This document shows, piece by piece, positions 10,811 through 48,616 of a stretch of 64,000 bases of DNA. Made by a program: the position numbers and the translations under genes. Every line of letters starts with the position of its first letter. Position 1 is the first letter of the stretch. The notes below the pieces were generated by a model. It saw only the letters and a list, made by a program, of their open reading frames with translations, was not told the origin of the DNA and did no database searches. Location: assembly GCF_003790525.1 (NCBI RefSeq), contig NZ_CP033635.1; one strand, written 5' to 3'. Source of the DNA: Escherichia coli. Lineage in GTDB: Bacteria; Pseudomonadota; Gammaproteobacteria; Enterobacterales; Enterobacteriaceae.

Positions 10811-10868
10811 CTTTTTTTGCCGCAGGCGCTGGTTCGCAGACTACTAAAATAATACGCGGTTTTTCATT

Positions 10869-12101
10869 TTACGGACGGGCAGCCAGAAGACACAGTTGAA
10901 ATGCCACATTATACGATTCCTCAAAGGATTTTAGAGGTAGAAACTCAAATATGGAGTGAAAATTATGTGCGCCAGTAAAAAAATTAGGCGTCAAAATTCC
11001 TCTGGCTGACAGAACTGCACCATCAGTTCCACCACGCATTGGTATCGGTTTTGGTGTAATTCCCAGCATATTCATGGACTCAAAGAGTAGATCTACAGCA
11101 CGTCTGTCTTTGTTTAAAGCATTACTAATATTGCTGTAGATATCAGTGATCGTGAACTCAACCCTGGCTGTCGGATATCGGGAAGATATTTTATGTGCAA
11201 CAGCAGCAATCTGTTGTTTTCTGCGAGTAAAACTGGATTGATCAAAATCACGTATACTTGCCTGTAACACAGCATTACTTTGTCCGGCATTCATACCATT
11301 GAACCAGATATAACCTTCACGACCAGCGGTATTCTCCGGTGTTTCAAGGCGATCAAATTCATTTATGTAATCACAGGCCATCAGTAATGGATTAACTAAT
11401 ACATTTTTTGCAGACATCGGATGTGCCGTTACACCAGTAAAACGGATCTCTGCAGATGCAGCGTTAAAGTTTTCATAAACAATCTCTCCTGACTCGCAAC
11501 AGTCAATTGTCCAGGCAAAGTCAACAGAAAAACGTTGTAAATCAAGAGACTTAGCTCCACGCAAGCCTGTTTCCTCATCAGGGACAAATGCAACCACAAT
11601 ATCACCATGCTGATGTTCTGAGGTCAGATTCTCCAGCATAGTCATCACTACCGAAACAGCGGCTTTATTATCAGCCCCTAGTACACTTGTTCCGTCGCTG
11701 AAAATAATGTCTTCCCCCCGATATTTCAGAATTTCGGGATGCTCTTTGACCCGCAGCCAGATATCTTTTTCTGCATTGAGACACAAATCTTCACCTGTAA
11801 ATTTCAAAATTTGTGGATGAATATCCGGAGATAAACCAACATCTACTGTATCAATATGAGTAATGAAACCAATTCGAGGCGCACCCGGAATATTACCTTT
11901 TTTCACCGCGGTGACCGTTGCATGCTCATCAACAATAATATCGTCCATATCCAGCAACGCCAGTTCATCTGCAAGTGTCCGGGCCATCTCATACTGTCCT
12001 TGTGTGGACGGAAGGGATGCTGAATTTGGGTCACTCTGGCTACTGATTGAAAGGTAGCGAAAGAAACGTTGGATTAATTGACTGCTTAATGGGGAGTACA
12101 T
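10869..12101 (-). CDS. peptidase T-like tripeptidase (M20B family)
   Basis: PepT-like motifs (LGADNKAAV, DEETGLRGAK, NFNAASAEI, RGGTDGA); start taken at MYSPLSS with AAGGAA SD. Confidence 0.75.
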   Translation of the reverse strand: MYSPLSSQLIQRFFRYLSISSQSDPNSASLPSTQGQYEMARTLADELALLDMDDIIVDEHATVTAVKKGNIPGAPRIGFITHIDTVDVGLSPDIHPQILKFTGEDLCLNAEKDIWLRVKEHPEILKYRGEDIIFSDGTSVLGADNKAAVSVVMTMLENLTSEHQHGDIVVAFVPDEETGLRGAKSLDLQRFSVDFAWTIDCCESGEIVYENFNAASAEIRFTGVTAHPMSAKNVLVNPLLMACDYINEFDRLETPENTAGREGYIWFNGMNAGQSNAVLQASIRDFDQSSFTRRKQQIAAVAHKISSRYPTARVEFTITDIYSNISNALNKDRRAVDLLFESMNMLGITPKPIPMRGGTDGAVLSARGILTPNFFTGAHNFHSIFEFLPLKSFEESYNVAFQLCLLAARP

Positions 12102-12219
12102 AACTTTTCCTTCTTTTTTTGTGTTATGAGGTGAATGCAATACGCATTTAATGTTATTTATTAATCTGTAAACGATGCGGATTCATCACTCCATATTGTC
12201 AAAGAAAACAGGAAAAGTC

Positions 12220-13812
12220 ATGGTAAGAAGATTAGCGACTATTGCACCGTTACTGGTTGCGTTGGGTGTAAGCTCAACTGTTTATGCAAAGACACTGGTT
12301 TACTGCTCTGAAGGCTCACCTGAGAGTTTTAATCCTCAGCTTTATACTTCGGGGACCAGTGTTGATGCAAGTGCTGTTCCGGTGTATAACCGACTGGTTG
12401 ATTTTAAGGTGGGCACTACTGTGCTGGTTCCCAGCCTGGCTGAACGATGGGAAATCAGTGGTGACGGGAAAGCATATACTTTTTATCTGCGTAAAGGCGT
12501 TAAATTTCACAGTAATAAATACTTTACTCCAACGCGAGAGTTTAATGCTGATGATGTTATTTTTTCATTTATGCGCCAGAAGGATCCTGGTCATCCATAT
12601 CACCAAGTTTCTGGTGGGACGTATTCTAATTTTGAAAGTCTGGAATTCAGTTCACTCATAACCAGTATCGACAGAGTTGATGATCATACAGTTCGCTTTA
12701 ATCTTTCACATCCGGAGGCTCCCTTTATTGCTGATTTAGCCTGGTATTTTGCTTCTGTTTTATCCGCTGAATATGCTGATGCTATGCTTAAAGCCGGAAC
12801 ACCTGAACGGGTTGATATGAATCCAATTGGGACAGGGCCATATCAACTCAAACAATATCAGAAAGATTCGCGTATTTTATTTACGGCTTTTGATGATTAC
12901 TGGGAGGGGAAAGCAAAACTGGAACGCATTGTTTTCAGTATCACACCAGATTCCTCAGTGCGTCTGGCTAAACTGGAGAAAAATGAGTGTCAGGTGATGC
13001 CGTTTCCTAATCCATCAGATCTTTCCAGAATCAAAAAAAATCCGGCTCTTAAATTGATGAGTAAAGCCGGACTTAATACAGGTTTTCTTGCTTTCAATAC
13101 GCAAAAAGCTCCTCTGGATAATGTAAAAGTTCGTCAGGCACTGGCAACAGCAATTAATAAAAATGCCATTATAGATGCTGTATTTCAGGGGACTGGTAGT
13201 GCTGCTAAAAATCTGCTGCCACCAGGAGTATGGAGTGCAGACAGTGAATTGAAAGATTATGAATATGATCCAGAAAAAGCCAGATCATTGCTAAAAGAAG
13301 CTGGTTTTGATAATGGAATGACTATTGATCTTTGGGCGATGCCAGTTCAACGCCCTTATAACCCAAACGCTAAACGAATGGCCGAAATGATTCAGGCTGA
13401 CTGGGCAAAAGTGGGAGTAAAAACAAACATTATCACTTTTGAATGGGGGGAATATCTTAATCGTATAAAGAACGGAGAGCATCAGGCTGCGTTGATGGGA
13501 TGGACAACCGCAACAGGTGATCCTGATAATTTTTTTGGTCCACTCTTTACCTGCACTTCTGCTAACGGTGGTTCTAATTCCGCGAAGTGGTGCTACAAAC
13601 CTTTCGATGAAATTATTTCTCAGGCTAAAGTAATAACTGATCAGGAAAAACGAGCAGTGCTCTATAAAAAAGCACAACAGATGATGCATGAACAAATACC
13701 AGCGGTGATGATTGCACATTCCACCATTTTTGAACCAATACGCAATGAAGTCACAGGTTATGAAATAGATCCATTTGGTAAACATATTTTTTATCAGGTT
13801 GATATAAAATAA
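12220..13812 (+). CDS. DppA-like periplasmic dipeptide (and possibly heme)-binding ABC substrate-binding protein, orphan
   Basis: About 530 aa after signal peptide; long collinear similarity to E. coli DppA (KTLVYCSEGSPE.FNPQL..., WAMPVQRPYNPNA.RMAEMIQADWAKVGV); no permease or ATPase genes follow. Confidence 0.8.
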   Translation: MVRRLATIAPLLVALGVSSTVYAKTLVYCSEGSPESFNPQLYTSGTSVDASAVPVYNRLVDFKVGTTVLVPSLAERWEISGDGKAYTFYLRKGVKFHSNKYFTPTREFNADDVIFSFMRQKDPGHPYHQVSGGTYSNFESLEFSSLITSIDRVDDHTVRFNLSHPEAPFIADLAWYFASVLSAEYADAMLKAGTPERVDMNPIGTGPYQLKQYQKDSRILFTAFDDYWEGKAKLERIVFSITPDSSVRLAKLEKNECQVMPFPNPSDLSRIKKNPALKLMSKAGLNTGFLAFNTQKAPLDNVKVRQALATAINKNAIIDAVFQGTGSAAKNLLPPGVWSADSELKDYEYDPEKARSLLKEAGFDNGMTIDLWAMPVQRPYNPNAKRMAEMIQADWAKVGVKTNIITFEWGEYLNRIKNGEHQAALMGWTTATGDPDNFFGPLFTCTSANGGSNSAKWCYKPFDEIISQAKVITDQEKRAVLYKKAQQMMHEQIPAVMIAHSTIFEPIRNEVTGYEIDPFGKHIFYQVDIK

Positions 13813-14910
13813 CAGGTGTAAGCTCCGTCTGTGACGTCTGGTGATAGTTGTCCAGTCTGGTAACAATAGCGTCCATCTATACAGATGGACGCGAATGATG
13901 AATTTTCAGACAACAAGATATTGATGGTTTTCGTTTTTATCTGCCCGACGCATTACGTCTAATATTCGAAGAACAATTATCTGTCTAGTTAATCGCTCAT
14001 CAGTCAGGGCTAAGTCATTTCACCATCACGATTTTTTTAACTATTACCCGAATGAGCAAAGTGAGGATGATGCCATGACGCAGGTCAGAGCGACCAGCAC
14101 CGCGACAATTAATAAAACAGGAAGGCTGCGCGTTTCAGACAGTGATGTCAACATAAACTATCAGTAACGTTAACTGCATCAGAAGCACAAGTATGGATTT
14201 TACCATTGTGCAGAACGACTTGCCCATGGGAAATAATAAATTTAATAAAAAAAGAAAGATATGGTTGCAAATATTATAATATCCCGGGCAACGATCCTGA
14301 TTTTCTCAATACATGTTTTCCTCACGTATTTGTTCTTCAAAGAGCAATCAGCATCTGTTACTGAATGGTTGTTATGAGCATTAAAAGAATAACGGGAAGT
14401 CGGTGACGTGGGGATATGTCGCGTGTTGAATTATACAAAGGGCCGACATCTTCATGGTGTCGGCCAGTCATAAGTGCCAGATATTAACCGTCAGTTACAG
14501 GGGGTAACCGCAGGAAACAGGCTACGCTCCGGGTAACGGGTTATCAATAGTTATTTATTTACTTAAATTCAGTGATTTTGTTCTGTATCATTGCGCTTTC
14601 TTACTGGTATAAATAATGATCGATTGATTTTCGCATGAGCATCAGAATTTGTCGTAATTTGAGGTCCAGGTGCTGTACATACAGGAATATGGTTCTGTCA
14701 GCGGTAGATTGCCGTTGCTGAGCAGAATGTTCAGGCTGGATGGTGAGATTACAGCTGATATTGCTGTGCTGATGGCAGAATGGTAAACGTTAAGTGCGCG
14801 TTCCCGGCAATGAAGGCAAACACGTCATGACAGCAACGCAAAATAAACCAGGAACGCGCGGTATTTTTTATCCCGAATGAAAGCGATTGTCCATATCCGG
14901 TAATAAATAT

Positions 14911-15162
14911 TCAGCAGTATGTAAAGTGCGGTTTGCCCGGTTCTGGTGGAAGGGGCTCCAGATACACATCATCAACAAACACACACGGGAATTTATCCAC
15001 CGGGCAGCCTGCACGGTCAGCCATATCCTGCAGCGTCACACTGTGCTTCGCGACATCAATAAACACAACATCCGGTTCCATTTCATCGGGGATTCGGGTT
15101 GCGTGATGCATAATGCGATGGACTGAAGGGCAGTGACGGTAACCAAAAACACGTATACGCAT
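14911..15162 (-). CDS. small hypothetical protein (83 aa), possibly thioredoxin/glutaredoxin-fold
   Basis: Strong AGGAGG SD 7 nt upstream of ATG; fold assignment speculative (MRIRVFGYRHCP...). Confidence 0.4.
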   Translation of the reverse strand: MRIRVFGYRHCPSVHRIMHHATRIPDEMEPDVVFIDVAKHSVTLQDMADRAGCPVDKFPCVFVDDVYLEPLPPEPGKPHFTYC

Positions 15163-15485
15163 GATGTACCTCCTGGTTGCAGGGTGACTGTATCATCAGA
15201 CCTTATCATGCGTTTAAAAAATGTACTGTAACTCACATTTTTTGGTAAGACGGTGGCTATTACTGCAAATGATGATGGCTCAGTTTTTATTTTTTATTCA
15301 ATATTTTCATGTTGTTATTGTTATTTTGTTTGTTCATACCCTGTGTGGTTCCCCGTTCTTTACATTCAGGCACTTCCGTTTCCTTTAACGTTTTCGTTAC
15401 TCTCTGAAGCTTGTGGTATCTGTGATTACTGATGCCTGCCGTCATACTGCGAAATACCGGATATCAGACCGTGGAGGATTCTGCC

Positions 15486-16058
15486 ATGCAACGCTGGTTT
15501 CTGCCTTTTCTTGCGTCTCTGTTGCTGTTACAGGGTTGTGTTGCCGCTGCGCTGGTCGGTACGGCTGCTGTGGGTACTAAAGTGTCAGTGGATCCCCGAA
15601 GTGCGGGAACGCAGATTGATGATGAAATTCTGGAAGCAAGGGTCAGCCGTGCGCTGTCGAAGGACTCACAACTCAGGGGTGATGCGCGAATTATCGTCAC
15701 AGCATACCAGGGCACTGTACTGCTGACAGGGCAGGTACCAGACCGTAGTGCAGGTGAAAGAGCCCGTCAGATTGCAGATGGTGTTGAGGGGACTGTGCAG
15801 GTATGGAATGAAATAAGGACGGGAAAACCACTCCGTGCTGATAAAACAACCACTGATGCCTGGCTGACCACAAAAATCCGGGCACAGTTACTGAAGAGCA
15901 GCCGGGTGAAACTGTCAGATGTAAAGGTACTGACGGAGAATGGTGAAGTCTTTCTTATGGGGAGAGTTACAGAGAAGGAAGGACAGGCTGCTGCAGATAT
16001 CGCCAGTCGCGTGGCGGGGGTGAAACACGTCATCACCGCATTCAGTTATATACGATGA
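15486..16058 (+). CDS. BON-domain lipoprotein, paralogue of DolP (YraP)
   Basis: Lipobox LLLLQGC, two BON-like segments, strong resemblance to YraP (LQGCVAAA.VGTAAVGTK...DPRS.GTQ.DD); GGAGGA SD before the internal ATG at 15486. Confidence 0.75.
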   Translation: MQRWFLPFLASLLLLQGCVAAALVGTAAVGTKVSVDPRSAGTQIDDEILEARVSRALSKDSQLRGDARIIVTAYQGTVLLTGQVPDRSAGERARQIADGVEGTVQVWNEIRTGKPLRADKTTTDAWLTTKIRAQLLKSSRVKLSDVKVLTENGEVFLMGRVTEKEGQAAADIASRVAGVKHVITAFSYIR

Positions 16059-16105
16059 GTATGGAGAGCCCGTTCGTTCGGGCTCTGTATTTATCTTCCC
16101 CCCGT

Positions 16106-16459
16106 TCATCCCTGGCGTTGCCAGGTGGCACTTCCGTTCTTACAGTCAACGCGCACACGATACTGAATATCTGCTTTCTTTCCACGGGCAGTGAGATGCA
16201 CAGTGATGACATTATCACCTTTATTTACCGGCTCACGAAGATTCACCCAGACAACGGGACGCTGCTGACCGAGAATTTCCTGGTCATCTTTCCACTGAAA
16301 CACCTGTTTCTGGAGATAGTCCCGTTTGACGCTGGCTGCAACAGTCGATGCTTCCTGTCCTTCACATCGTGGAAAACTGACGGTTCTGTTTTTTTCAGCG
16401 GCCAGTGATGATGCACAGATACCGAAGATGAGCAGAATGGAAGAGAGTGCTTTGTTCAT
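16106..16459 (-). CDS. secreted hypothetical protein (117 aa, signal peptide)
   Basis: N-terminal signal peptide MNKALSSILLIFGICASSLAA; GGAGGA SD upstream. Confidence 0.45.
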   Translation of the reverse strand: MNKALSSILLIFGICASSLAAEKNRTVSFPRCEGQEASTVAASVKRDYLQKQVFQWKDDQEILGQQRPVVWVNLREPVNKGDNVITVHLTARGKKADIQYRVRVDCKNGSATWQRQG

Positions 16460-16773
16460 TTACAGGTCCTCCACAGGGGATAGTTTCATTGAGGAGTTAC
16501 ATCTTAACAACATAAAACAGCATTTCCTGTAACAATCCTCACATAACTTCTTATCCCGTCACTTCCCGTTTCACATGGGCAGCATAGCCTGTTTTTTAAC
16601 CCGTTTTTCAGTCATTTCCATAAACAAATCTTCGCTGACGATAAATCTTTTTTCTGTTTAACGATCGATTTTGTCGATCGATATGATATGTATAATTCAT
16701 TTTACCAATGAGAAATCCATCTTAAAATTGGACAAATTCATATGTCTGAAGGAAACATCAGGAGAGGTGGATT

Positions 16774-17523
16774 GTGAAAAAGTTACTGGCACTCACTGCG
16801 GTAGCTGCGCTTACCGGCACGTTTTCAACGCTGGCGCTGGCAGATGCGGATAAAACCGGGTTCTATATCACGGGTAAGGCTGGTGCATCTGTTATCACTC
16901 AGGATAATCAGCGTTTTAGTCAGGACTTTGGTGATGTTGTTTATAAGTATAAAGGCGGTGACAAGAGCGATACGGTTTTTGGCGCCGGCCTTGCGGTGGG
17001 ATATGACTTTTATCAGCACTACAATGTACCTGTTCGCACGGAAGTTGAATTCTATGGTCGCGGCTCTGCGAATTCCCGCTATACACTGGATACATGGGAG
17101 TCCCCGTCTGGAGATAATGGTTGGAAGGAAGACACACAAAACAGGCTCAGCGTGAATACCCTGATGGTGAGCACGTATTATGATTTCAGAAACAGCAGTG
17201 CTTTCACTCCGTGGGTATCAGCCGGACTGGGTTATGCGCGGGTACATCATAAGGCAACATACACCGATACCACCTGGCATAAATCAGGTGAAGTAAGTGA
17301 TGCTTCTTCATTACATTACTCGGGATATGATAACAATTTCGCATGGAGCCTTGGTGTTGGCGTGAAATATGATGTCACCCCGGATTTCAGTCTTGACCTT
17401 GCTTATCGCTATCTTGATGCAGGTGATTCAACCCTGACGTATAAAGACGGGCAGGATACATATAAATCCTCTGTTGATGTCAGAAGTAACGAATTTACGT
17501 TAGGCGCTACATACAGCTTCTGA
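16774..17523 (+). CDS. outer-membrane beta-barrel protein (249 aa)
   Basis: Signal peptide ending ALA-DA, alternating aromatic/hydrophilic strands, C-terminal ...TYSF; GTG start with GGAGAGG SD. Confidence 0.6.
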   Translation: MKKLLALTAVAALTGTFSTLALADADKTGFYITGKAGASVITQDNQRFSQDFGDVVYKYKGGDKSDTVFGAGLAVGYDFYQHYNVPVRTEVEFYGRGSANSRYTLDTWESPSGDNGWKEDTQNRLSVNTLMVSTYYDFRNSSAFTPWVSAGLGYARVHHKATYTDTTWHKSGEVSDASSLHYSGYDNNFAWSLGVGVKYDVTPDFSLDLAYRYLDAGDSTLTYKDGQDTYKSSVDVRSNEFTLGATYSF

Positions 17524-17534
17524 ATGTAATATCT

Positions 17535-17573
17535 GACTACACGTTGTTAAATTCAAAATCGCAGCGTGTAGTC
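17535..17573 (+). terminator. hairpin after the OMP gene (9-bp stem GACTACACG/CGTGTAGTC)
   Basis: Inverted repeat followed by a T-containing tract. Confidence 0.4.
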
Positions 17574-17735
17574 TGATTTGATAGTTTAATACAACAGACA
17601 CGTACCTTCATGGCACTTCCTTAGCCCCCGGTTACGTTCATTTGTACCAGATGTAAGTGGCGTAAAACCATTGTCCAAATAGTGGCTCTAAAAGATTAGA
17701 TACTCATTTAGATATTATATAGCATAAGGTGATAT

Positions 17736-18089
17736 ATGGGATTTTGGGATGCTATAATGGGATTCGGTAAGCTTGCTTCTAATGCTGCTGCTGAAACGAT
17801 GAAAAAAGTCAATTTCAATGTGTGGGATAAAATAAAATCATCTCCGGTAGAAAGAATTAACGATTTTTATAACCAAAATAATACATCTGAGTATAATCGG
17901 CCAGCATACAGAGGATTGGCTATTGCTGCTCTATGTTTTAGGGGGGATTGGAGCGGGGAGCGTTTATGGCGTGAAGATCAGGAGGCTGCTAATTGGTTAA
18001 AGAATTTTAGAATAAAAATTTCACTGGATACATGTGATTCTGCAGATGAACTACGTAAAATAATCGATCGTCTTACAGAACTGAATTGA
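17736..18089 (+). CDS. hypothetical protein A (117 aa, soluble, no recognised domain)
   Basis: ORF with AAGGTGA SD; AT-rich; first of three co-oriented genes. Confidence 0.5.
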   Translation: MGFWDAIMGFGKLASNAAAETMKKVNFNVWDKIKSSPVERINDFYNQNNTSEYNRPAYRGLAIAALCFRGDWSGERLWREDQEAANWLKNFRIKISLDTCDSADELRKIIDRLTELN

Positions 18090-18178
18090 TTACTGGAGGT
18101 GAAGTTATTTTTATAGGGATAAGTTGAAAATATTTATATGCCCTGTAAGTGTTATTTATATATCGAGAGCGTGAGCCA

Positions 18179-18379
18179 ATGGTCTTTCTTCGACCACCTA
18201 CTACATTTATCTGTATGAATTGTCAATGGAGTAAAACTATTATTCATGTGAACTGTACAACAGGATTTTATGAATGTCCTGTGTGTGGAGAGAAAGTTAT
18301 TTATAAACGTAAGGCTACGATTACAGAAAATCTGTTTTCCAGAGTAATGCAATTCTTTCTTAAAAATCATAATATTTGA
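18179..18379 (+). CDS. hypothetical small zinc-ribbon protein B (66 aa from internal ATG; ORF opens at 18149)
   Basis: C-x2-C ... C-x2-C arrangement (CMNC ... CPVC). Confidence 0.45.
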   Translation: MVFLRPPTTFICMNCQWSKTIIHVNCTTGFYECPVCGEKVIYKRKATITENLFSRVMQFFLKNHNI

Positions 18380-18460
18380 TTGATAATAATAATTGTGTCC
18401 CGATGTCTGGCGGAGATAGTTTTTGGAAAGTGATTGTGAAATTTTTAGGTTTTTTGTTGT

Positions 18461-19117
18461 ATGACTGATAATGAAAATATTCTCACACCATCAAAAATCA
18501 TAAAATTTCTGGATTACGCTTATGAAAAATCCATCGATGGTATTGGTATCCCGGGGATAGATACGGCACATAGTCTTGCGGAAAGTTATCTGAAAACGGG
18601 TAGTAGTTTAAAAGAACAGATAAATAGCCTTATTCGATGGCAGAATACCAAGTCTGCCACATCAGGTTTTCTTACTGGTCTTGGAGGAATTATTACATTA
18701 CCAGTAACTATACCGACCAATATTTCAAGTGTCCTTTTCATTCAGGTCAGGATGGTAGCATCTATTGCGATCATGTGTGGTCAGGATATTCGTGATGATA
18801 AAGTCAGAACTATTGTTTATACCTGTCTTGTAGGTAATGCTGCGAAAGATATTTTGAAGGAAGCAGGAATTCAGATAGGACAAAGGTTGACAACAAATGC
18901 AATTAGATGTATTAGCAAAGAAATTATTGTAAAGATAAATAAGGCTGTCGGTTTCAGACTGCTTACAAAAACAGGTGCTACTGGTGTTATTAATATGTCA
19001 AAGCTTGTTCCTGTTGTAGGAGGAATCGTTGGTGGTAGTTTTGATGCGATAACAACCAACATCGTTGGTAATTATGCCAGAGATACATTCCTGAGTTTGA
19101 TTGATAATGATTTATAA
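18461..19117 (+). CDS. hypothetical protein C (218 aa) with C-terminal glycine-zipper-like segment; possibly EcsC-family-like
   Basis: ORF; Gly-rich segment VVGGIVGGSFDAITTNIVGNYA; EcsC resemblance is from memory and unverified. Confidence 0.5.
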   Translation: MTDNENILTPSKIIKFLDYAYEKSIDGIGIPGIDTAHSLAESYLKTGSSLKEQINSLIRWQNTKSATSGFLTGLGGIITLPVTIPTNISSVLFIQVRMVASIAIMCGQDIRDDKVRTIVYTCLVGNAAKDILKEAGIQIGQRLTTNAIRCISKEIIVKINKAVGFRLLTKTGATGVINMSKLVPVVGGIVGGSFDAITTNIVGNYARDTFLSLIDNDL

Positions 19118-19459
19118 AATAAAAGTTTCATAAAAAATAGTATTTTAGGTGTGCTGACGATAGTGGATACTTTAGTATTATTGCTTCAAGTTGCATAATT
19201 TTTAACTAACATTAGGTATGAAATTATCCTGACTGGCGGGTAATACTGCCGCTCAATATGGCAAGGTTGTATTACACTGCAAGGAGAAATTCATCGCATA
19301 TCCTTACCCACAAATTTGGAGGCTATTTTATTTGCCAGTAATAATCATGTTAATCCTGAGAATATAGTTTGATATCATATGGTTAATCATTTATCTTGAT
19401 AGATATCTTCTGGTTTGTATAGGAATTAACTATTGAATATGTCGCCTGAAATCAGAAAT

Positions 19460-19513
19460 CAAAAAATACAAATGACAGTTAACTCCCCACCAACCACTGC
19501 GGTTGGTGGGGAG
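19460..19513 (-). terminator. rho-independent terminator of the integrase gene
   Basis: Perfect 13-bp stem CTCCCCACCAACC / GGTTGGTGGGGAG with 5-nt loop, followed on the minus strand by a T-rich tract. Confidence 0.65.
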
Positions 19514-19516
19514 GAC

Positions 19517-20710
19517 TTATTTCGTTTTTACGTTTTTCTCCATAAGTGAATCAATGTAATCAGCGTACCACTGCATCATTTCACGACGTCCATCCAGATA
19601 TTGCGCATGGTTATAAGTGCCACGCATGACGTTTTTATCAACATGAGCAAGCTGGAGTTCAATCCAGGCTGAGCTGAAATCATGGTCATGGAGAATGGTG
19701 CTGAAGGTATGACGAAATCCGTGGGCTGTTGTCAGGGCATGCCAGCCTGACTGCTCAAGGAATTCATTGATACACTTGCGGTTTCGCGGGAGATCTTTTC
19801 TGAATGCACCAGGAATAATAAAGGCGGAATTACGCGATTCAGTGCGTGTTTTTATCTCCTCCAGTAACGCCAGTACCTGGCGTGAAAGCGGCACAACGTG
19901 CGGTCGTCGCATTTTCATTCTTTCTTTCGGAATAACCCACAGGGCCTCCGTGAAATTAATTTCGTCCCAGGTTGCCAGTCGCAGTTCTCCGGTGCGAACA
20001 GCAGTCAGAACCAGCATCTGCGTTGCCAGCGACATCAGATTTTCGGATGCCGTTATCTGATGCATGAAAGCTCCCATCTGTTCTTCAGAAAGCGTCCTGC
20101 GCTGTTGTTTTTCAGGAGGAAGCAGTACCCCGCTGAGTGTCGATGCCGGATTAACGGTAGCACGTCCTGTTGCTATGGCATAATCAAAAACCTGCGCACA
20201 GAGCTGGCGTGTTTTACGCAGTGCTTCAAGTTTTCCCTGTTCTTCTATAGTCCTCAGAACGTTCAGTATTTCCATGGGGCGGATCCCGGTCACAGGACGG
20301 TTTCCAAGAGCAGGGAAAACATGATTTTCAAGTCTTGCACGCTGATCTGCCTGGTAACCTGTTGTCCATCGACGTGCCATATGGGTAAGCAGCTCCTCTG
20401 CAATGGTGCGAAATGTGCAGGCCATACTTTCCCTGATGGCAAGTTTTCGCGCCTGTTTTTCATACGACGGATCTTTACCTTCAGCCAGAAGTTTCCGTGC
20501 TTCATCCCGCTTCTGACGAGCCTGAGCCAGTGATATGTCAGGATAGACACCAATCACCAGTTTCTTTTCCTTACCGGCAAAGCGGTACTTCAGATTCCAG
20601 TAACGGGCACCGGATTTTTTGACAAGAAGATAAAGGCCCTGACCGTCAGAAAGTTTGTAATCCCTGTCAGCAGGTTTAGCCGACTCAATTTGTCGAACAG
20701 TAAGTGGCAT
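19517..20710 (-). CDS. tyrosine recombinase, P4-type phage/island integrase (397 aa)
   Basis: Full-length ORF with typical P4-family N-terminus (MPLTVRQIESAKPADRDYKLSDGQGLYLLV) and catalytic C-terminal region (HGFRHTFST...). Confidence 0.9.
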   Translation of the reverse strand: MPLTVRQIESAKPADRDYKLSDGQGLYLLVKKSGARYWNLKYRFAGKEKKLVIGVYPDISLAQARQKRDEARKLLAEGKDPSYEKQARKLAIRESMACTFRTIAEELLTHMARRWTTGYQADQRARLENHVFPALGNRPVTGIRPMEILNVLRTIEEQGKLEALRKTRQLCAQVFDYAIATGRATVNPASTLSGVLLPPEKQQRRTLSEEQMGAFMHQITASENLMSLATQMLVLTAVRTGELRLATWDEINFTEALWVIPKERMKMRRPHVVPLSRQVLALLEEIKTRTESRNSAFIIPGAFRKDLPRNRKCINEFLEQSGWHALTTAHGFRHTFSTILHDHDFSSAWIELQLAHVDKNVMRGTYNHAQYLDGRREMMQWYADYIDSLMEKNVKTK

Positions 20711-20924
20711 GATGTTACCCCTGCAATGTAGCCCCCATAATAGCCCCCAAAATCATCTTGATGTTCATGGAATATGATTTACCCCCAGAGAGAAGGAATT
20801 TCTTATGATACCTTATTTCAAAGGGGGTTAAAGGGGGAGGGGTTATCTCTGTTGAAATCAGTTGATATCAATAGATCCTCCCCAGAGGGGCGAGGGGACC
20901 GTTCGAACTCGTATTTGACTTTGT

Positions 20925-20953
20925 CAACAATAATAAAGGGAGCTTTCGCTCCC
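20925..20953 (-). terminator. rho-independent terminator of lptG
   Basis: GGGAGCGAAAGCTCCC hairpin followed on the minus strand by TTTATTATT. Confidence 0.6.
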
Positions 20954-20961
20954 TTGTTAGA

Positions 20962-22044
20962 TTACGATTTTCTCATTAACAGCCACAGGCTGATTAAGAA
21001 GAAGCTGGCGCTTGGCAACAGTGCGCCGATGATCGGCGGGATGCCATAAACCAACGTCAGCGGGCCGAAGATCTGGTCCAGTACGTAGAAGACAAAACCG
21101 AAGCTGATACCGGTGACCACACGCACGCCCATCGGTACGCTACGCAGTGGGCCAAAGATAAACGACAGCGCCATCAGCATCATCACCGCCACGGATAGCG
21201 GCTGGAAGATTTTGCTCCACATGTTGAGCTGATAACGTCCGGCATCCTGACCGCTCGACTTCAGATACTTCACATAGTTGTGCAAACCACTGATGGAGAG
21301 TGCATCCGGGTCCAGCGCCACCACGCCCAGTTTGTCTGGCGTGAGGTTGGTTTTCCAGGTGCCGCTCACCGTCTGCGAACCGGTGATCTGTTTCGGATTG
21401 GTCAGATCAGATTCATCAACCTGCGACAGACGCCAGACTTTATGTTCCGGGTCAAACTTCGCGGTAGCGGCATAACGTACGGATTGCAGACGACGATTCT
21501 CGTTAAAGGCATAAATACTGATGCCACCTAACTCTTCGTCACCTTTAACCCGCTCAATGTAGACGAAGTTGTTGCCATCTTTCGCCCATAAGCCTTGCTG
21601 AGTGGAGAGCAACGAGCCGCCGTACATCGCCTGCGCACGGTAGTTACGCGCCATCTGCTCGCCCTGCGGCGCGACCCATTCACCAATCGCCATCGTCAGC
21701 AAGACCAGCGGAATGGCGGTTTTCATCACCGACAGCGCCACCTGCATACGGGTAAAACCAGAAGCCTGCATGACTACCAGTTCGCTGCGCTGCGCCAGCA
21801 TCCCAAGACCAAGCAACGCCCCAAGCAGAGCCGCCATCGGGAAGAAGATTTGCACATCTTTCGGCACGCTCAGCAAGGTATACATTCCTGCGCCTAACGC
21901 GTCGTAACTCCCCTGCCCGGCTTTTTTCAGCTGATCGACAAACTTGATAATGCCCGACAGCGACACCAGCATGAACAGCGTCATCATGATGGTGGTGAAA
22001 ATAGTTTTACCGATATAGCGGTCAAGTACGCCAAAAGGTTGCAT
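20962..22044 (-). CDS. lptG: LPS export ABC transporter permease LptG
   Basis: ORF matches LptG; start overlaps lptF stop (TGATG). Confidence 0.9.
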   Translation of the reverse strand: MQPFGVLDRYIGKTIFTTIMMTLFMLVSLSGIIKFVDQLKKAGQGSYDALGAGMYTLLSVPKDVQIFFPMAALLGALLGLGMLAQRSELVVMQASGFTRMQVALSVMKTAIPLVLLTMAIGEWVAPQGEQMARNYRAQAMYGGSLLSTQQGLWAKDGNNFVYIERVKGDEELGGISIYAFNENRRLQSVRYAATAKFDPEHKVWRLSQVDESDLTNPKQITGSQTVSGTWKTNLTPDKLGVVALDPDALSISGLHNYVKYLKSSGQDAGRYQLNMWSKIFQPLSVAVMMLMALSFIFGPLRSVPMGVRVVTGISFGFVFYVLDQIFGPLTLVYGIPPIIGALLPSASFFLISLWLLMRKS

Positions 22045-23144
22045 CACACCGCTCCTTTACGCGAAAAACTGGCGCGCAGGCGGCGGACCGGCACGGTGTC
22101 CCAAAGGTTGAGAACAATCGCCAAAGCCAGATAAATCAGGTTAACGGTCCACATCCACAGCGTCGGGTCCAGCTTACCTTTACCGCCGTTCGATTTCAGG
22201 GAGGTCTGGATCAGGAAGAACAACAGATACAGCAGCATGGCTGGCAGCATCGATAGTACGCGTCCCTGACGCGGGTTAACCACGCTCAGCGGTACGACCA
22301 TAAGTGCCATCATAAACACGGTGAACACCAACGTGATACGCCAGTTCAGTTCTGCGCGAGCACGATCGGTGTCAGTGTTCCACAATGTGCGCATGTCCAT
22401 CTGGTCGGTATCGTTCGGGTCGAGCGCCACCGCCTGGTGACCAATGATCGCCTGATAATCCTGGAAATCCGTAATGCGGAAATCACGTAACAGTGCAGTG
22501 CCTTCGAAGCGCGTTCCCTGGTTGAGAGTGACGACCTGGGAGCCGTCGCGCAGCTGGGTTAAATGTCCGGAATCGGCCACCACCACAGAAGGTCGTGCAT
22601 TACCTTTTGGTCGAATTTGCGCGAGGAACACATCTTTGAAATCGCTGCCGTCAACGCTTTCGATGAACAGCACCGAGCTGCCATTAGTCGCTTGCTGGAA
22701 TTGCCCTTGCGCAAGCGCCGCCATGCCAGGGTTCGCTTTCGCTTCTGCTAACACTTCATCCTGATGACGCGATGACCACGGTCCCGCCCACATCACGTTA
22801 ACCGCCGCGACGATTGCCGTGAATACCGCAAGGATCATTGCCGCTTTCACCAGCACCGCTTTGCTCAGGCCGCAGGCATGCATTACCGTAATTTCACTTT
22901 CGGTATACAGTTTGCCCAGCGTCATCAGCAGCCCGAGGAACAGGCTTAATGGCAGGATAAGCTGCGCCATTTCCGGCACGCCCAACCCGAGAAGGGAGAG
23001 CACCAGATTCGCCGGAATATCGCCGTCAACCGCTGCGCCGAGGATCCTCACTAACTTTTGACAGAAGAAGATCAAAAGCAAGATGAAGAGTATCGCCAGC
23101 TGGCTTTTGAGCGTCTCCCGCACCAGATATCTTATGATTATCAC
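22044..23144 (-). CDS. lptF: LPS export ABC transporter permease LptF
   Basis: 366-aa ORF, LptF sequence and synteny. Confidence 0.9.
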   Translation of the reverse strand: MIIIRYLVRETLKSQLAILFILLLIFFCQKLVRILGAAVDGDIPANLVLSLLGLGVPEMAQLILPLSLFLGLLMTLGKLYTESEITVMHACGLSKAVLVKAAMILAVFTAIVAAVNVMWAGPWSSRHQDEVLAEAKANPGMAALAQGQFQQATNGSSVLFIESVDGSDFKDVFLAQIRPKGNARPSVVVADSGHLTQLRDGSQVVTLNQGTRFEGTALLRDFRITDFQDYQAIIGHQAVALDPNDTDQMDMRTLWNTDTDRARAELNWRITLVFTVFMMALMVVPLSVVNPRQGRVLSMLPAMLLYLLFFLIQTSLKSNGGKGKLDPTLWMWTVNLIYLALAIVLNLWDTVPVRRLRASFSRKGAV

Positions 23145-23407: not shown

Positions 23408-24922
<1,515 letters not shown>

Positions 24923-24934
24923 GTTTGCGTTTTA

Positions 24935-24972
24935 CCCTCACCCTAACCCTCTCCCTAAGGGAGGGGGAACCG
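24935..24972. repeat. C-rich palindromic intergenic repeat (CCCTCACCCTAACCCTCTCCCT-AAGGGAGGGGGAACCG)
   Basis: Near-identical copy at 48575-48616; partial related motif near 20880-20910. Confidence 0.6.
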
Positions 24973-48574: not shown

Positions 48575-48616
48575 CCCCCTCACCCTAACCCTCTCCCTCA
48601 AGGGAGAGGGGACCGT
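48575..48616. repeat. C-rich palindromic intergenic repeat (second copy)
   Basis: CCCTCACCCTAACCCTCTCCCTCAAGGGAGAGGGGACCG, near-identical to 24935-24972. Confidence 0.6.

What the first reader, a model, noticed from the sequence alone, without database searches (positions are those of the whole stretch)
19517..20961. P4-type integrase abuts lptG with no recognisable tRNA; K-12 genes between lptG and the integrase are missing
The integrase start lies about 230 bp from the lptG terminator. In K-12 as I recall it, lptG is followed by yjgR, the idn genes, ahr and tRNA-Leu (leuX) before intB. I found no leuX-like sequence and no cloverleaf-like segment in 20711-20940, only a C-rich palindromic motif related to repeats at 24935 and 48575. 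Either the island uses a non-tRNA site, or a deletion removed the tRNA and neighbouring core genes, which would leave the island without an intact att site.
Basis: partly seen in the sequence, partly recalled or inferred. Interest (0 to 1): 0.5.

Follow-up and report, generated by a model that had tools for sequence, protein, structure and literature searches.

The report
Island integrase that targets BoxC repeats
The integrase next to lptG belongs to a large genomic island that inserted, not into a tRNA gene, but into the central palindrome of a short intergenic repeat (BoxC) that occurs about 17 times per E. coli genome, which explains why the same island turns up at a dozen different chromosomal places.

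Summary
An intact 397-aa P4-like integrase (19517-20710, minus strand) starts 226 bp from the lptG terminator. ARAGORN and Infernal find no tRNA or tmRNA, and the C-rich motif is half of a BoxC repeat.

The deletion reading is not supported. The island ends exactly at ...ATCAATAGATC|CTCCCCAGAGGGG|CGAGGGGACCG (core 20878-20890). E. coli SMS-3-5 has the empty site, yjgR-BoxC-lptG, identical to the window from 20886 onward.

In strain CM2 a sister island of about 92 kb sits at the same BoxC. Its far end carries the left BoxC half plus the same core, and yjgR-idn-ahr-leuX lie intact beyond it.

Integrases 97.7-100% identical to the window's, with the same island ends, occupy ten BoxC copies: lptG, gcvP, yhfS, ycjD, ypfG, glnH, yraQ, sstT, ytfQ and a DUF1287 gene. 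More distant relatives occupy a look-alike palindrome inside ulaE, in both orientations.

Relatives in other species (at most 58% identical) almost all sit beside tRNA genes.

Published work lists the gln and ula sites but not the BoxC link. The main BoxC paper states that no integrases were found next to these repeats.

Verdict: a new target-class variant of a known integrase kind. The window's own far end lies outside it.

The parts
1..19516 (.). Integrase-proximal part of the genomic island. The island continues past the left edge of the window. Cargo includes an EcsC-family protein, an Adr/OmpW-like outer membrane protein, YebF and DolP paralogues, DppA-like and PepT-like proteins, a TonB-dependent haem receptor, a DsbD-like protein and IS66/IS3 fragments.
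   Evidence: ORF list; NCBIfam hits; mosaic matches to islands in other E. coli. No attL-type arm is present in the window: TAGCCCCCA occurs only at 20729 and 20741.
19517..20710 (-). P4-like tyrosine integrase gene, 397 aa, apparently intact. Catalytic residues are R239, K266, H330, R333, H356 and Y366.
   Evidence: Pfam Arm-DNA-bind_3, Phage_int_M and Phage_integrase; NCBIfam PRK09692 at 271 bits, below the cutoff of 434; translation and motif positions. The exact protein is listed in 257 blocks of the public assembly collection; the contigs read show it at glnH and yraQ.
20711..20877 (.). Island-side arm of attR (the P' arm). It ends in ...TCAATAGATC.
   Evidence: This stretch is conserved in all relatives down to 79% DNA identity, and its end point is the same in every locus.
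20729..20749 (+). Two tandem TAGCCCCCA repeats at 20729-20737 and 20741-20749, candidate arm-type integrase binding sites.
   Evidence: The repeats are conserved in all relatives. A second pair sits in the attL arm of CM2 and four other genomes. That integrase binds them is inferred, not shown.
20878..20890 (+). Recombination core CTCCCCAGAGGGG, shared by island and target. The crossover lies within it.
   Evidence: There is a single occurrence in the window against 0.07 expected. The same 13 bp, with a variable central triplet, lies at every attR and attL examined and in the empty sites.
20891..20905 (+). Chromosomal right half of the BoxC/TMECO repeat (CGAGGGGACCGTTCG).
   Evidence: Identity with the uninterrupted yjgR-lptG spacer of SMS-3-5 runs from 20886 onward. 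The stretch matches the right halves of the BoxC copies at 24934 and 48575.
20936..20955 (-). lptG intrinsic terminator hairpin (AAGGGAGC/GCTCCCTT).
   Evidence: inverted repeat I7; also present in K-12 and SMS-3-5.
20962..22047 (-). lptG, followed by lptF (22044-23144, minus strand) and pepA (23411-24922, plus strand). This is normal core synteny.
   Evidence: annotation of the homologous region in CM2, SMS-3-5 and K-12.
24934..24972 (+). Complete BoxC copy between pepA and holC. It is the other subtype (core CTCCCTAAGGGAG) and is unoccupied.
48575..48615 (+). Complete BoxC copy of the other subtype (core CTCCCTCAAGGGAG), unoccupied.

Best explanation
A large genomic island of the pathogenicity-island type inserted between lptG and yjgR by site-specific recombination. 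Sister copies are 76-116 kb. The recombination was catalysed by the island's own P4-like tyrosine integrase. The chromosomal attachment site is the central palindrome of a BoxC repeat (also called PIT or TMECO), not a tRNA gene. This repeat is present in the lptG-yjgR spacer of some E. coli lineages but not in K-12. Island attP and chromosomal attB share only about 13 bp, CTCCCC-nnn-GGGG. After integration the integrase end (attR, in the window) reads island arm, then core, then right BoxC half. The far end (attL, outside the window) should read left BoxC half, then core, then AATGGTGAAA... Because this BoxC subtype is dispersed, the same element can occupy many loci. Thirteen of the 23 published K-12 copies carry the core. 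Shown here: the junction anatomy, the empty site, both ends in five other genomes, multi-site occupancy, and the contrast with tRNA-linked relatives. Inferred: that the integrase binds the TAGCCCCCA arm repeats, that cleavage flanks the central triplet (overlap roughly CC-nnn-GG), that the element is still mobile, and that yjgR through leuX are intact in this particular genome.
For: (1) There is no tRNA or tmRNA in the window. (2) The integrase is intact and P4-like. (3) The empty site yjgR-CCCCTCACCCTAACCCTCTCCCCAAAGGGGCGAGGGGACCG-lptG in SMS-3-5 is 100% identical to window 20886-21200. (4) CM2 has an island of about 92 kb at the same BoxC, with attL = left BoxC half + CTCCCCATAGGGG + island, and yjgR-idn-ahr-leuX intact beyond it. 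(5) The CM2 integrase is 98.7% identical in protein, and a TPR gene and an ISAs1 fragment lie beside it that the window lacks. The two therefore look like independent insertions at one site. (6) About 50 integrase-side junctions from 11 loci all break at the same nucleotide. (7) Four further genomes have matching attL junctions next to ygfF, fabI, frlR and glnP. (8) K-12 empty sites hold complete BoxC copies. Three of them are the published TMECO #9, #11 and #15. (9) The ulaE site is not a BoxC and shares only CTCCCCGCCGGGGAG. The same element, with an identical integrase protein, lies there in both orientations. (10) In other species, 64 of 74 relatives (34-58% identical) with at least 397 nt of upstream sequence have a tRNA or tmRNA gene within the 800 bp scanned upstream of the integrase start, most ending about 160-270 bp from it. 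None of the 80 loci scanned has the core.
Against: The far end of the island is outside the window, so the second core copy and the fate of yjgR through leuX in this genome are unseen. No excisionase was identified. No circular form or experimental integration is available. The central triplet differs between some attL, attR and attB sets. In the window attR has AGA, while the SMS-3-5 attB has AAA. This requires tolerance of a mismatch in the overlap, or an unsampled attB variant. The source genome was not found among 5,426 complete E. coli genomes; the best match was 97.8%.
Confidence: 0.85

Rival explanations
1. The island originally sat at leuX, like K-12 intB elements. A deletion then removed leuX, ahr, the idn genes and yjgR, fusing the integrase end to lptG and destroying the att site.
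For: The K-12 gene order places leuX and a P4-like integrase 8 kb beyond lptG. The window shows none of these genes.
Against: The fusion point falls exactly at the 13-bp core used at ten other loci. The chromosomal side is identical to an uninterrupted BoxC spacer. The integrase is only 34% identical to K-12 IntB. In CM2 the same site is occupied, and yjgR through leuX plus a separate leuX-linked integrase remnant are all present. A random deletion end would not reproduce this junction.
Confidence: 0.03
2. The island moves between BoxC copies, or was placed here, by RecA-dependent homologous recombination between repeats. The integrase is a passenger.
For: BoxC copies are 35-55 bp long and highly similar, with a median of 17 per genome. 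They have been reported as loci of elevated variability (PMC4666352).
Against: The island carries only the 13-bp core, not a BoxC, at its ends. That is too little homology for this route. The ulaE site is not a BoxC and shares about 15 bp. Both orientations occur at the symmetric ulaE site, while BoxC insertions keep one orientation. Conserved arm repeats flank the core on both sides.
Confidence: 0.05
3. The arrangement is ancestral for this lineage, vertically inherited and now immobile. The integrase is a relic with no current function.
For: The island is riddled with IS fragments. The 91% and 79% alleles are seen only at glnH and ulaE respectively, consistent with clonal inheritance. In Br_112_kylling an inversion has split an island.
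Against: This does not contradict insertion at BoxC as the origin. Identical integrase proteins at several different loci argue for recent movement in the 97-100% clade. Of the 5,426 complete genomes, only CM2 holds an island at lptG, and the window's own genome is not among them. Close relatives have the empty site.
Confidence: 0.25

Closest known systems
P4-like (CP4-57/PRK09692-type) integrases of pathogenicity islands at tRNA genes (pheV, pheU, selC, leuX, asn tRNAs)
   Same: Both have the same three-domain architecture and catalytic residues. In both, the integrase sits at one island end and reads away from the target, about 170-250 bp from it. Both have short direct repeats at the two ends. 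The far-end module is the same: GTPase, DUF932, antirestriction, RadC, CbtA/YeeU and DUF4942 genes.
   Different: The target here is a non-coding dispersed repeat rather than the 3' part of a tRNA or tmRNA gene. The protein is at most 58% identical to any relative found in other species, and most of those are tRNA-linked. It is 34% identical to K-12 IntB.
[quoted passage not shown] 2020, PMC7686366; also Royer et al. 2021, PMC8097792)
   Same: These are the same two loci, glnP-glnH and ulaD-ulaE, where relatives of this integrase sit. The ST69 island at ulaE carries iha and hlyCABD.
   Different: Those papers treat gln and ula as two separate sites with site-specific integrases. In the passages retrieved they describe neither BoxC nor a shared core, and they list only the gln and ula non-tRNA sites. 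The lptG site of the window is not among their sites.
BoxC / PIT / TMECO intergenic repeats of E. coli (Bachellier et al. 1999, cited from memory and via PMC4666352; Holder et al. 2015, PMC4666352)
   Same: The attB sequence is identical to published TMECO type 'A mm' copies. K-12 TMECO #9, #11 and #15 are three of the occupied loci.
   Different: Holder et al. report that they 'never found' transposase or integrase remnants near these motifs, and they attribute local variability to triplex DNA. Here a subset of the repeats acts as integrase attachment sites.
Insertion sequences that target repeated extragenic palindromes (IS1397/ISKpn1 into BIMEs; IS110-family elements such as IS621 into REP), from my own knowledge and not tested here
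   Same: In both cases a mobile element uses a dispersed intergenic palindromic repeat as a safe, multi-copy landing site.
   Different: Those elements use DDE or DEDD transposases and are about 1-2 kb. Here the enzyme is a tyrosine integrase with arm-type sites, and it carries islands of 76-116 kb.
HPI and pks islands that can use any of several identical asn tRNA genes (PMC8209727)
   Same: Both achieve multi-site integration through a multi-copy identical target.
   Different: Their targets are tRNA genes, three or four copies per genome. Here there are a dozen or more non-coding repeats and a coding-sequence pseudo-site.

Membership tests
P4-like tyrosine integrases (Arm-DNA-bind_3 type) | N-terminal arm-type DNA-binding domain (PF13356) | tested here: met
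   Residues 3-87, E = 8.5e-28.
P4-like tyrosine integrases (Arm-DNA-bind_3 type) | Central core-binding domain plus C-terminal catalytic domain (PF22022 and PF00589) | tested here: met
   Residues 100-194 (E = 3.7e-28) and 206-371 (E = 1.6e-20).
P4-like tyrosine integrases (Arm-DNA-bind_3 type) | Catalytic R-K-H-R-H-Y residues | tested here: met
   R239 (VRTGELR), K266, H330 and R333 (HGFRHT), H356 (LAH) and Y366 (RGTY), read from the translation. The assignment is by motif inspection, not by structural alignment.
P4-like tyrosine integrases (Arm-DNA-bind_3 type) | Integration into the 3' part of a tRNA or tmRNA gene (usual, not universal) | tested here: not met
   No tRNA or tmRNA in the window. 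By contrast, 64 of 74 relatives in other species have one within 800 bp upstream of the integrase start.
P4-like tyrosine integrases (Arm-DNA-bind_3 type) | NCBIfam PRK09692 curated whole-protein cutoff | tested here: not met
   271 bits against a cutoff of 434. The protein is related but outside the curated family.
BoxC / PIT / TMECO repeat | Consensus CCCTCNCCC-N3-6-GGGNGAGGG-N3-GGGNGAGGG (PMC4666352) | tested here: met
   The uninterrupted attB of SMS-3-5 is identical to published TMECO #7, #11 and #15 in reverse complement. The window keeps only the right half, 20878-20905.
BoxC / PIT / TMECO repeat | Intergenic and multi-copy in E. coli | tested here: met
   Median 17 places per genome across 5,425 genomes. 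There are two further complete copies in the window.
Integrase-bounded genomic island | Integrase at one end, and absence from closely related genomes at the same locus | tested here: met
Integrase-bounded genomic island | Direct repeat of the att core at both ends | tested here: inconclusive
   The window starts inside the island, so only attR is visible. Both ends were seen in CM2, TUM9803, PK-F-10122, GPEC1040 and GF60.
Integrase-bounded genomic island | Excision and integration activity, and a recombination directionality factor | not testable with these tools
No excisionase gene was sought beyond the annotation of CM2, which lists a small HTH regulator inside the island.

The most novel reading that the evidence does not exclude
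BoxC/TMECO repeats have had no assigned function since the 1990s and were reported as triplex-forming 'instability' motifs. On this reading they are the natural, dispersed attachment sites of a clade of pathogenicity-island integrases that is still active. One island could then land at any of a dozen or more loci per genome, and in either orientation at symmetric look-alike sites such as ulaE. Part of the variability reported at BoxC loci would be integrase traffic rather than non-B DNA damage. Recognition might also depend on the hairpin that the repeat can extrude, by analogy with the stem-loops of tRNA genes. As far as the searchable literature shows, this link has not been described.
Probability: 0.5. 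Interest if true: 0.7.

Novelty: new variant of a known kind. Interest (0 to 1): 0.6.

Why it matters
First, it resolves the puzzle in the window. The island is properly integrated and nothing need have been deleted.

Second, it gives a concrete biological role to a subset of BoxC/TMECO repeats. It also offers a simpler explanation for some of the variability reported around them.

Third, it shows that islands carrying virulence cargo are not tied to one locus. Their cargo includes sit, haem receptors, iha, hly and papGII. Typing schemes that identify such islands by insertion site (gln, ula) will miss copies at lptG, gcvP, yhfS, ycjD, ypfG, yraQ, sstT, ytfQ and elsewhere.

Fourth, a compact integrase with a 13-bp symmetric core and many natural chromosomal landing sites could be a useful tool for multi-copy chromosomal integration in E. 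coli.

Tried and rejected
- **tRNA or tmRNA at the junction.** ARAGORN on the whole window and Infernal/Rfam at E<=1 on 15-26 kb both found nothing.
- **K-12 as the reference for the empty site.** Its lptG-yjgR spacer has a REP-like palindrome and no BoxC. SMS-3-5 was the right comparison.
- **Deletion of leuX and its neighbours.** Rejected; see the rival explanations.
- **Homologous recombination between repeats.** Rejected because of the non-BoxC ulaE site and the 13-bp ends.
- **Close relatives in other species.** One genome-contig scan found nothing above 58% identity. In that collection of one genome per species, no close relative turned up outside E. coli.
- **Locating the window's own genome.** The best complete genome matches at only 97.8% across the junction. 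The exact-protein look-up returned other loci, not lptG.
- **Br_112_kylling.** I suspected integrase-mediated recombination between distant BoxC copies, because attR and attL are 1.6 Mb apart. attL is next to glnP as expected, so this is an inversion with a breakpoint inside the island.
- **Literature.** Nine searches found no paper linking BoxC, PIT or TMECO to an integrase. Subscription-only papers are not covered, so prior description cannot be excluded.

Full report
**1. What is in the window**

The ORF at 19517-20710 (minus strand) encodes a 397-aa protein. It has an N-terminal Arm-DNA-bind_3 domain, a Phage_int_M central domain and a Phage_integrase catalytic domain. The best NCBIfam match is PRK09692, at 271 bits and below the curated cutoff of 434. 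The catalytic set R239, K266, H330, R333, H356 and Y366 is readable in the translation. The label 'P4-type integrase' is therefore justified by architecture.

lptG ends at 20962, and its terminator hairpin is at 20936-20955. lptF, pepA, holC and valS follow in normal order. ARAGORN finds no tRNA or tmRNA in the whole 64 kb. Infernal against all 4,227 Rfam families at E<=1 finds nothing tRNA-like between 15 and 26 kb.

**2. The junction**

I compared window 19400-21100 with 5,426 complete E. coli genomes. Only one, strain CM2, has this integrase next to lptG, at 97.8% identity. Other genomes carry an integrase about 97% identical, with the same neighbouring cargo, beside quite different genes:

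- gcvP in TUM9803
- yhfS in GPEC1040
- ycjD in PK-F-10122
- ypfG in 23CRST013
- glnH in GF60 and many others

Look-ups by exact protein sequence added yraQ, a DUF1287 gene, the sstT/ygjV spacer and ytfQ.

In every case the island sequence stops at the same nucleotide...TCAATAGATC. It is followed by CTCCCC-nnn-GGGG and then [A/C/T]GAGGGRAC.... In the window the core is CTCCCCAGAGGGG at 20878-20890. This is its only occurrence, against 0.07 expected by chance.

**3. The empty site and the other end**

Window 20886-21200 is 100% identical to SMS-3-5 and at least 35 other genomes. In SMS-3-5 the yjgR stop codon is followed by gtgCCCCTCACCCTAACCCTCTCCCCAAAGGGGCGAGGGGACCGTTCG and then the lptG terminator. 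That is a complete repeat with no island, with yjgR, idnRTOD, idnK, ahr and tRNA-Leu in K-12 order. K-12 itself has no such repeat in this spacer.

In CM2 the island is about 92 kb. Its far end reads yjgR...CCCCTCACCCTAACCCT-CTCCCCATAGGGG-AATGGTGAAAATTC... Beyond it, yjgR through leuX are intact.

The attL arm of CM2 was found in exactly the 16 genomes that carry the 97% or 84% integrases. Four more attL junctions lie next to ygfF, fabI, frlR and glnP. These are precisely the partners of the gcvP, ycjD, yhfS and glnH junctions. Each reads left repeat half, then core, then AATGGTGAAA. These islands span 76-116 kb (coordinates).

Both arms carry a pair of TAGCCCCCA repeats. I take these to be arm-type binding sites, which is an inference.

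**4. Identity of the target**

Holder et al. 2015 (PMC4666352) describe this element, earlier named BoxC and PIT, as 'TMECO'. Their consensus is CCCTCNCCC-N3-6-GGGNGAGGG-N3-GGGNGAGGG, and they list 23 copies in K-12.

The attB sequence here is identical to their type 'A mm' copies. TMECO #11 is the gcvP/ygfF site, and the coordinates match exactly. TMECO #9 lies in the fabI-ycjD spacer and #15 in the frlR-yhfS spacer.

Thirteen of the 23 K-12 copies carry the CTCCCC-N3-GGGG core. The sstT junction shows that a four-base spacer, as in TMECO #13, is also used. The K-12 glnP-glnH spacer holds a slightly divergent complete copy. BoxC-like sequences occur a median of 17 times per E. coli genome.

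The two complete copies in the window have the other core, CTCCCT..AGGGAG, and are unoccupied.

**5. A pseudo-site that separates sequence recognition from repeat homology**

Relatives at 84% and 79% DNA identity sit inside ulaE. I sampled two of roughly 59 genomes in the 79% class, plus ten exact-protein contexts. K-12 ulaE reads ...AAAAAGCG-CTCCCCGCCGGGGAG-TGCTGG... at codons 14-19. This is a perfect 6+3+6 palindrome and is not a BoxC.

The same element, with an identical integrase protein, is found there in both orientations. In PKF11 the integrase lies next to the ulaE 3' part. In AR_0085 it lies next to ulaD, with attL abutting the ulaE 3' part.

This argues for recognition of a short symmetric core. 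It argues against homologous recombination between repeats.

The central triplet varies (AGA, AAA, ATA, GGC, GCC, GCT). It sometimes differs between attL, attR and the presumed attB. In CM2, for example, attL is ATA and attR is AAA. This is what a heteroduplex overlap would produce after replication. That interpretation is inferred.

**6. Phylogenetic context**

A scan of one genome per species (GTDB) found no relative above 58% identity. Of the 74 loci with at least 397 nt of upstream sequence, 64 have a tRNA or tmRNA gene within the 800 bp scanned upstream of the integrase start. Most end about 160-270 bp from it. The tRNAs include Phe, Arg, SeC, Gly, Thr and Ser. None of the 80 loci scanned has the core motif. 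The BoxC-targeting clade therefore looks like a derived lineage, so far seen only in E. coli, within ordinary tRNA-targeting P4-like integrases.

Among complete E. coli genomes, 117 of 5,426 carry a relative. Ninety have a near full-length copy.

**7. Comparison with the literature**

Biggel et al. 2020 (PMC7686366) list 'gln' (glnP-glnH) and 'ula' (ulaE-ulaD) as two of six integration loci of papGII pathogenicity islands. They describe the integrases as site-specific. Royer et al. 2021 mention the glnH-glnP site. Neither mentions BoxC or a common core in the passages retrieved.

Nine full-text searches found no paper making the link. The library does not cover most subscription journals, so I cannot exclude a prior description.

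**8. Verdict**

The finding is real and its first alternative is right: the island uses a non-tRNA site. The deletion alternative is not supported. The K-12 genes are most probably displaced beyond the island's far end, which lies outside the window. This last point is shown for CM2 and inferred for the window's genome.

The window's insertion appears independent of CM2's. The integrase allele differs (98.7% protein identity), the central triplet differs (AGA against AAA), and the TPR and ISAs1 genes next to the integrase are absent. This makes the lptG BoxC a recurrent attachment site.

What is new is the target class and the resulting multi-site behaviour. The enzyme type and the island type are not new.

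Noticed in passing
window 23969-24163 (minus strand): There is a strong Rfam match to Ysr276, 'Yersinia sRNA 276' (182.9 bits; gathering score 100). It lies antisense inside the pepA coding region. It may simply reflect conservation of pepA rather than a real sRNA.
   Followed up: no
window 24934-24972 and 48575-48615: Two complete BoxC/TMECO copies have the alternative core (CTCCCT-AA/CAA-GGGAG) and are unoccupied. None of the occupied sites examined has this core, which suggests subtype specificity of the integrase.
   Followed up: partly
L007, L031, L032, L120, L138-L147 (ulaD/ulaE of other E. coli): Relatives of the integrase are inserted inside ulaE at a CTCCCCGCCGGGGAG palindrome, which truncates the first 13 or so codons. 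The ST69 island there carries iha and hlyCABD. The same element occurs in both orientations. Carriers may have lost ascorbate utilisation.
   Followed up: partly
L033 and L123 (E. coli Br_112_kylling, NZ_CP182371.1); also 23CRST013: attR (glnH side, 2.567 Mb) and attL (glnP side, 4.195 Mb, opposite strand) are 1.6 Mb apart. This implies a large chromosomal inversion with one breakpoint inside the island. 23CRST013 shows a similar separation (3.788 against 1.760 Mb) that I did not examine.
   Followed up: partly
L027 (GCA_964252025.1): A CbtA/CbeA-DUF5983 module, typical of the far end of such islands, lies only three genes upstream of another copy of this integrase. This suggests neighbouring or tandem islands.
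   Followed up: no
L036, L044, L057, L060, L063, L065, L068, L070, L106, L107: Ten P4-like relatives in other species have no tRNA within 800 bp upstream. They include Mixta tenebrionis, Serratia oryzae and Salmonella diarizonae. They may use other non-tRNA targets.
   Followed up: no
window 1-19500: The island cargo includes paralogues of the core genes dolP, yebF, pepT and dppA. It also includes a TonB-dependent haem receptor and a DsbD-like protein, interspersed with IS66 and IS3 fragments. There is a weak IS102 RNA hit at 16615-16700 (28 bits, below the gathering score).
   Followed up: partly
L029 (K-12 ygfF-gcvP spacer): Two BoxC copies lie in inverted orientation 27 bp apart (TMECO #10 and #11). 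Only the target-type copy, #11, is used by the island in TUM9803.
   Followed up: yes
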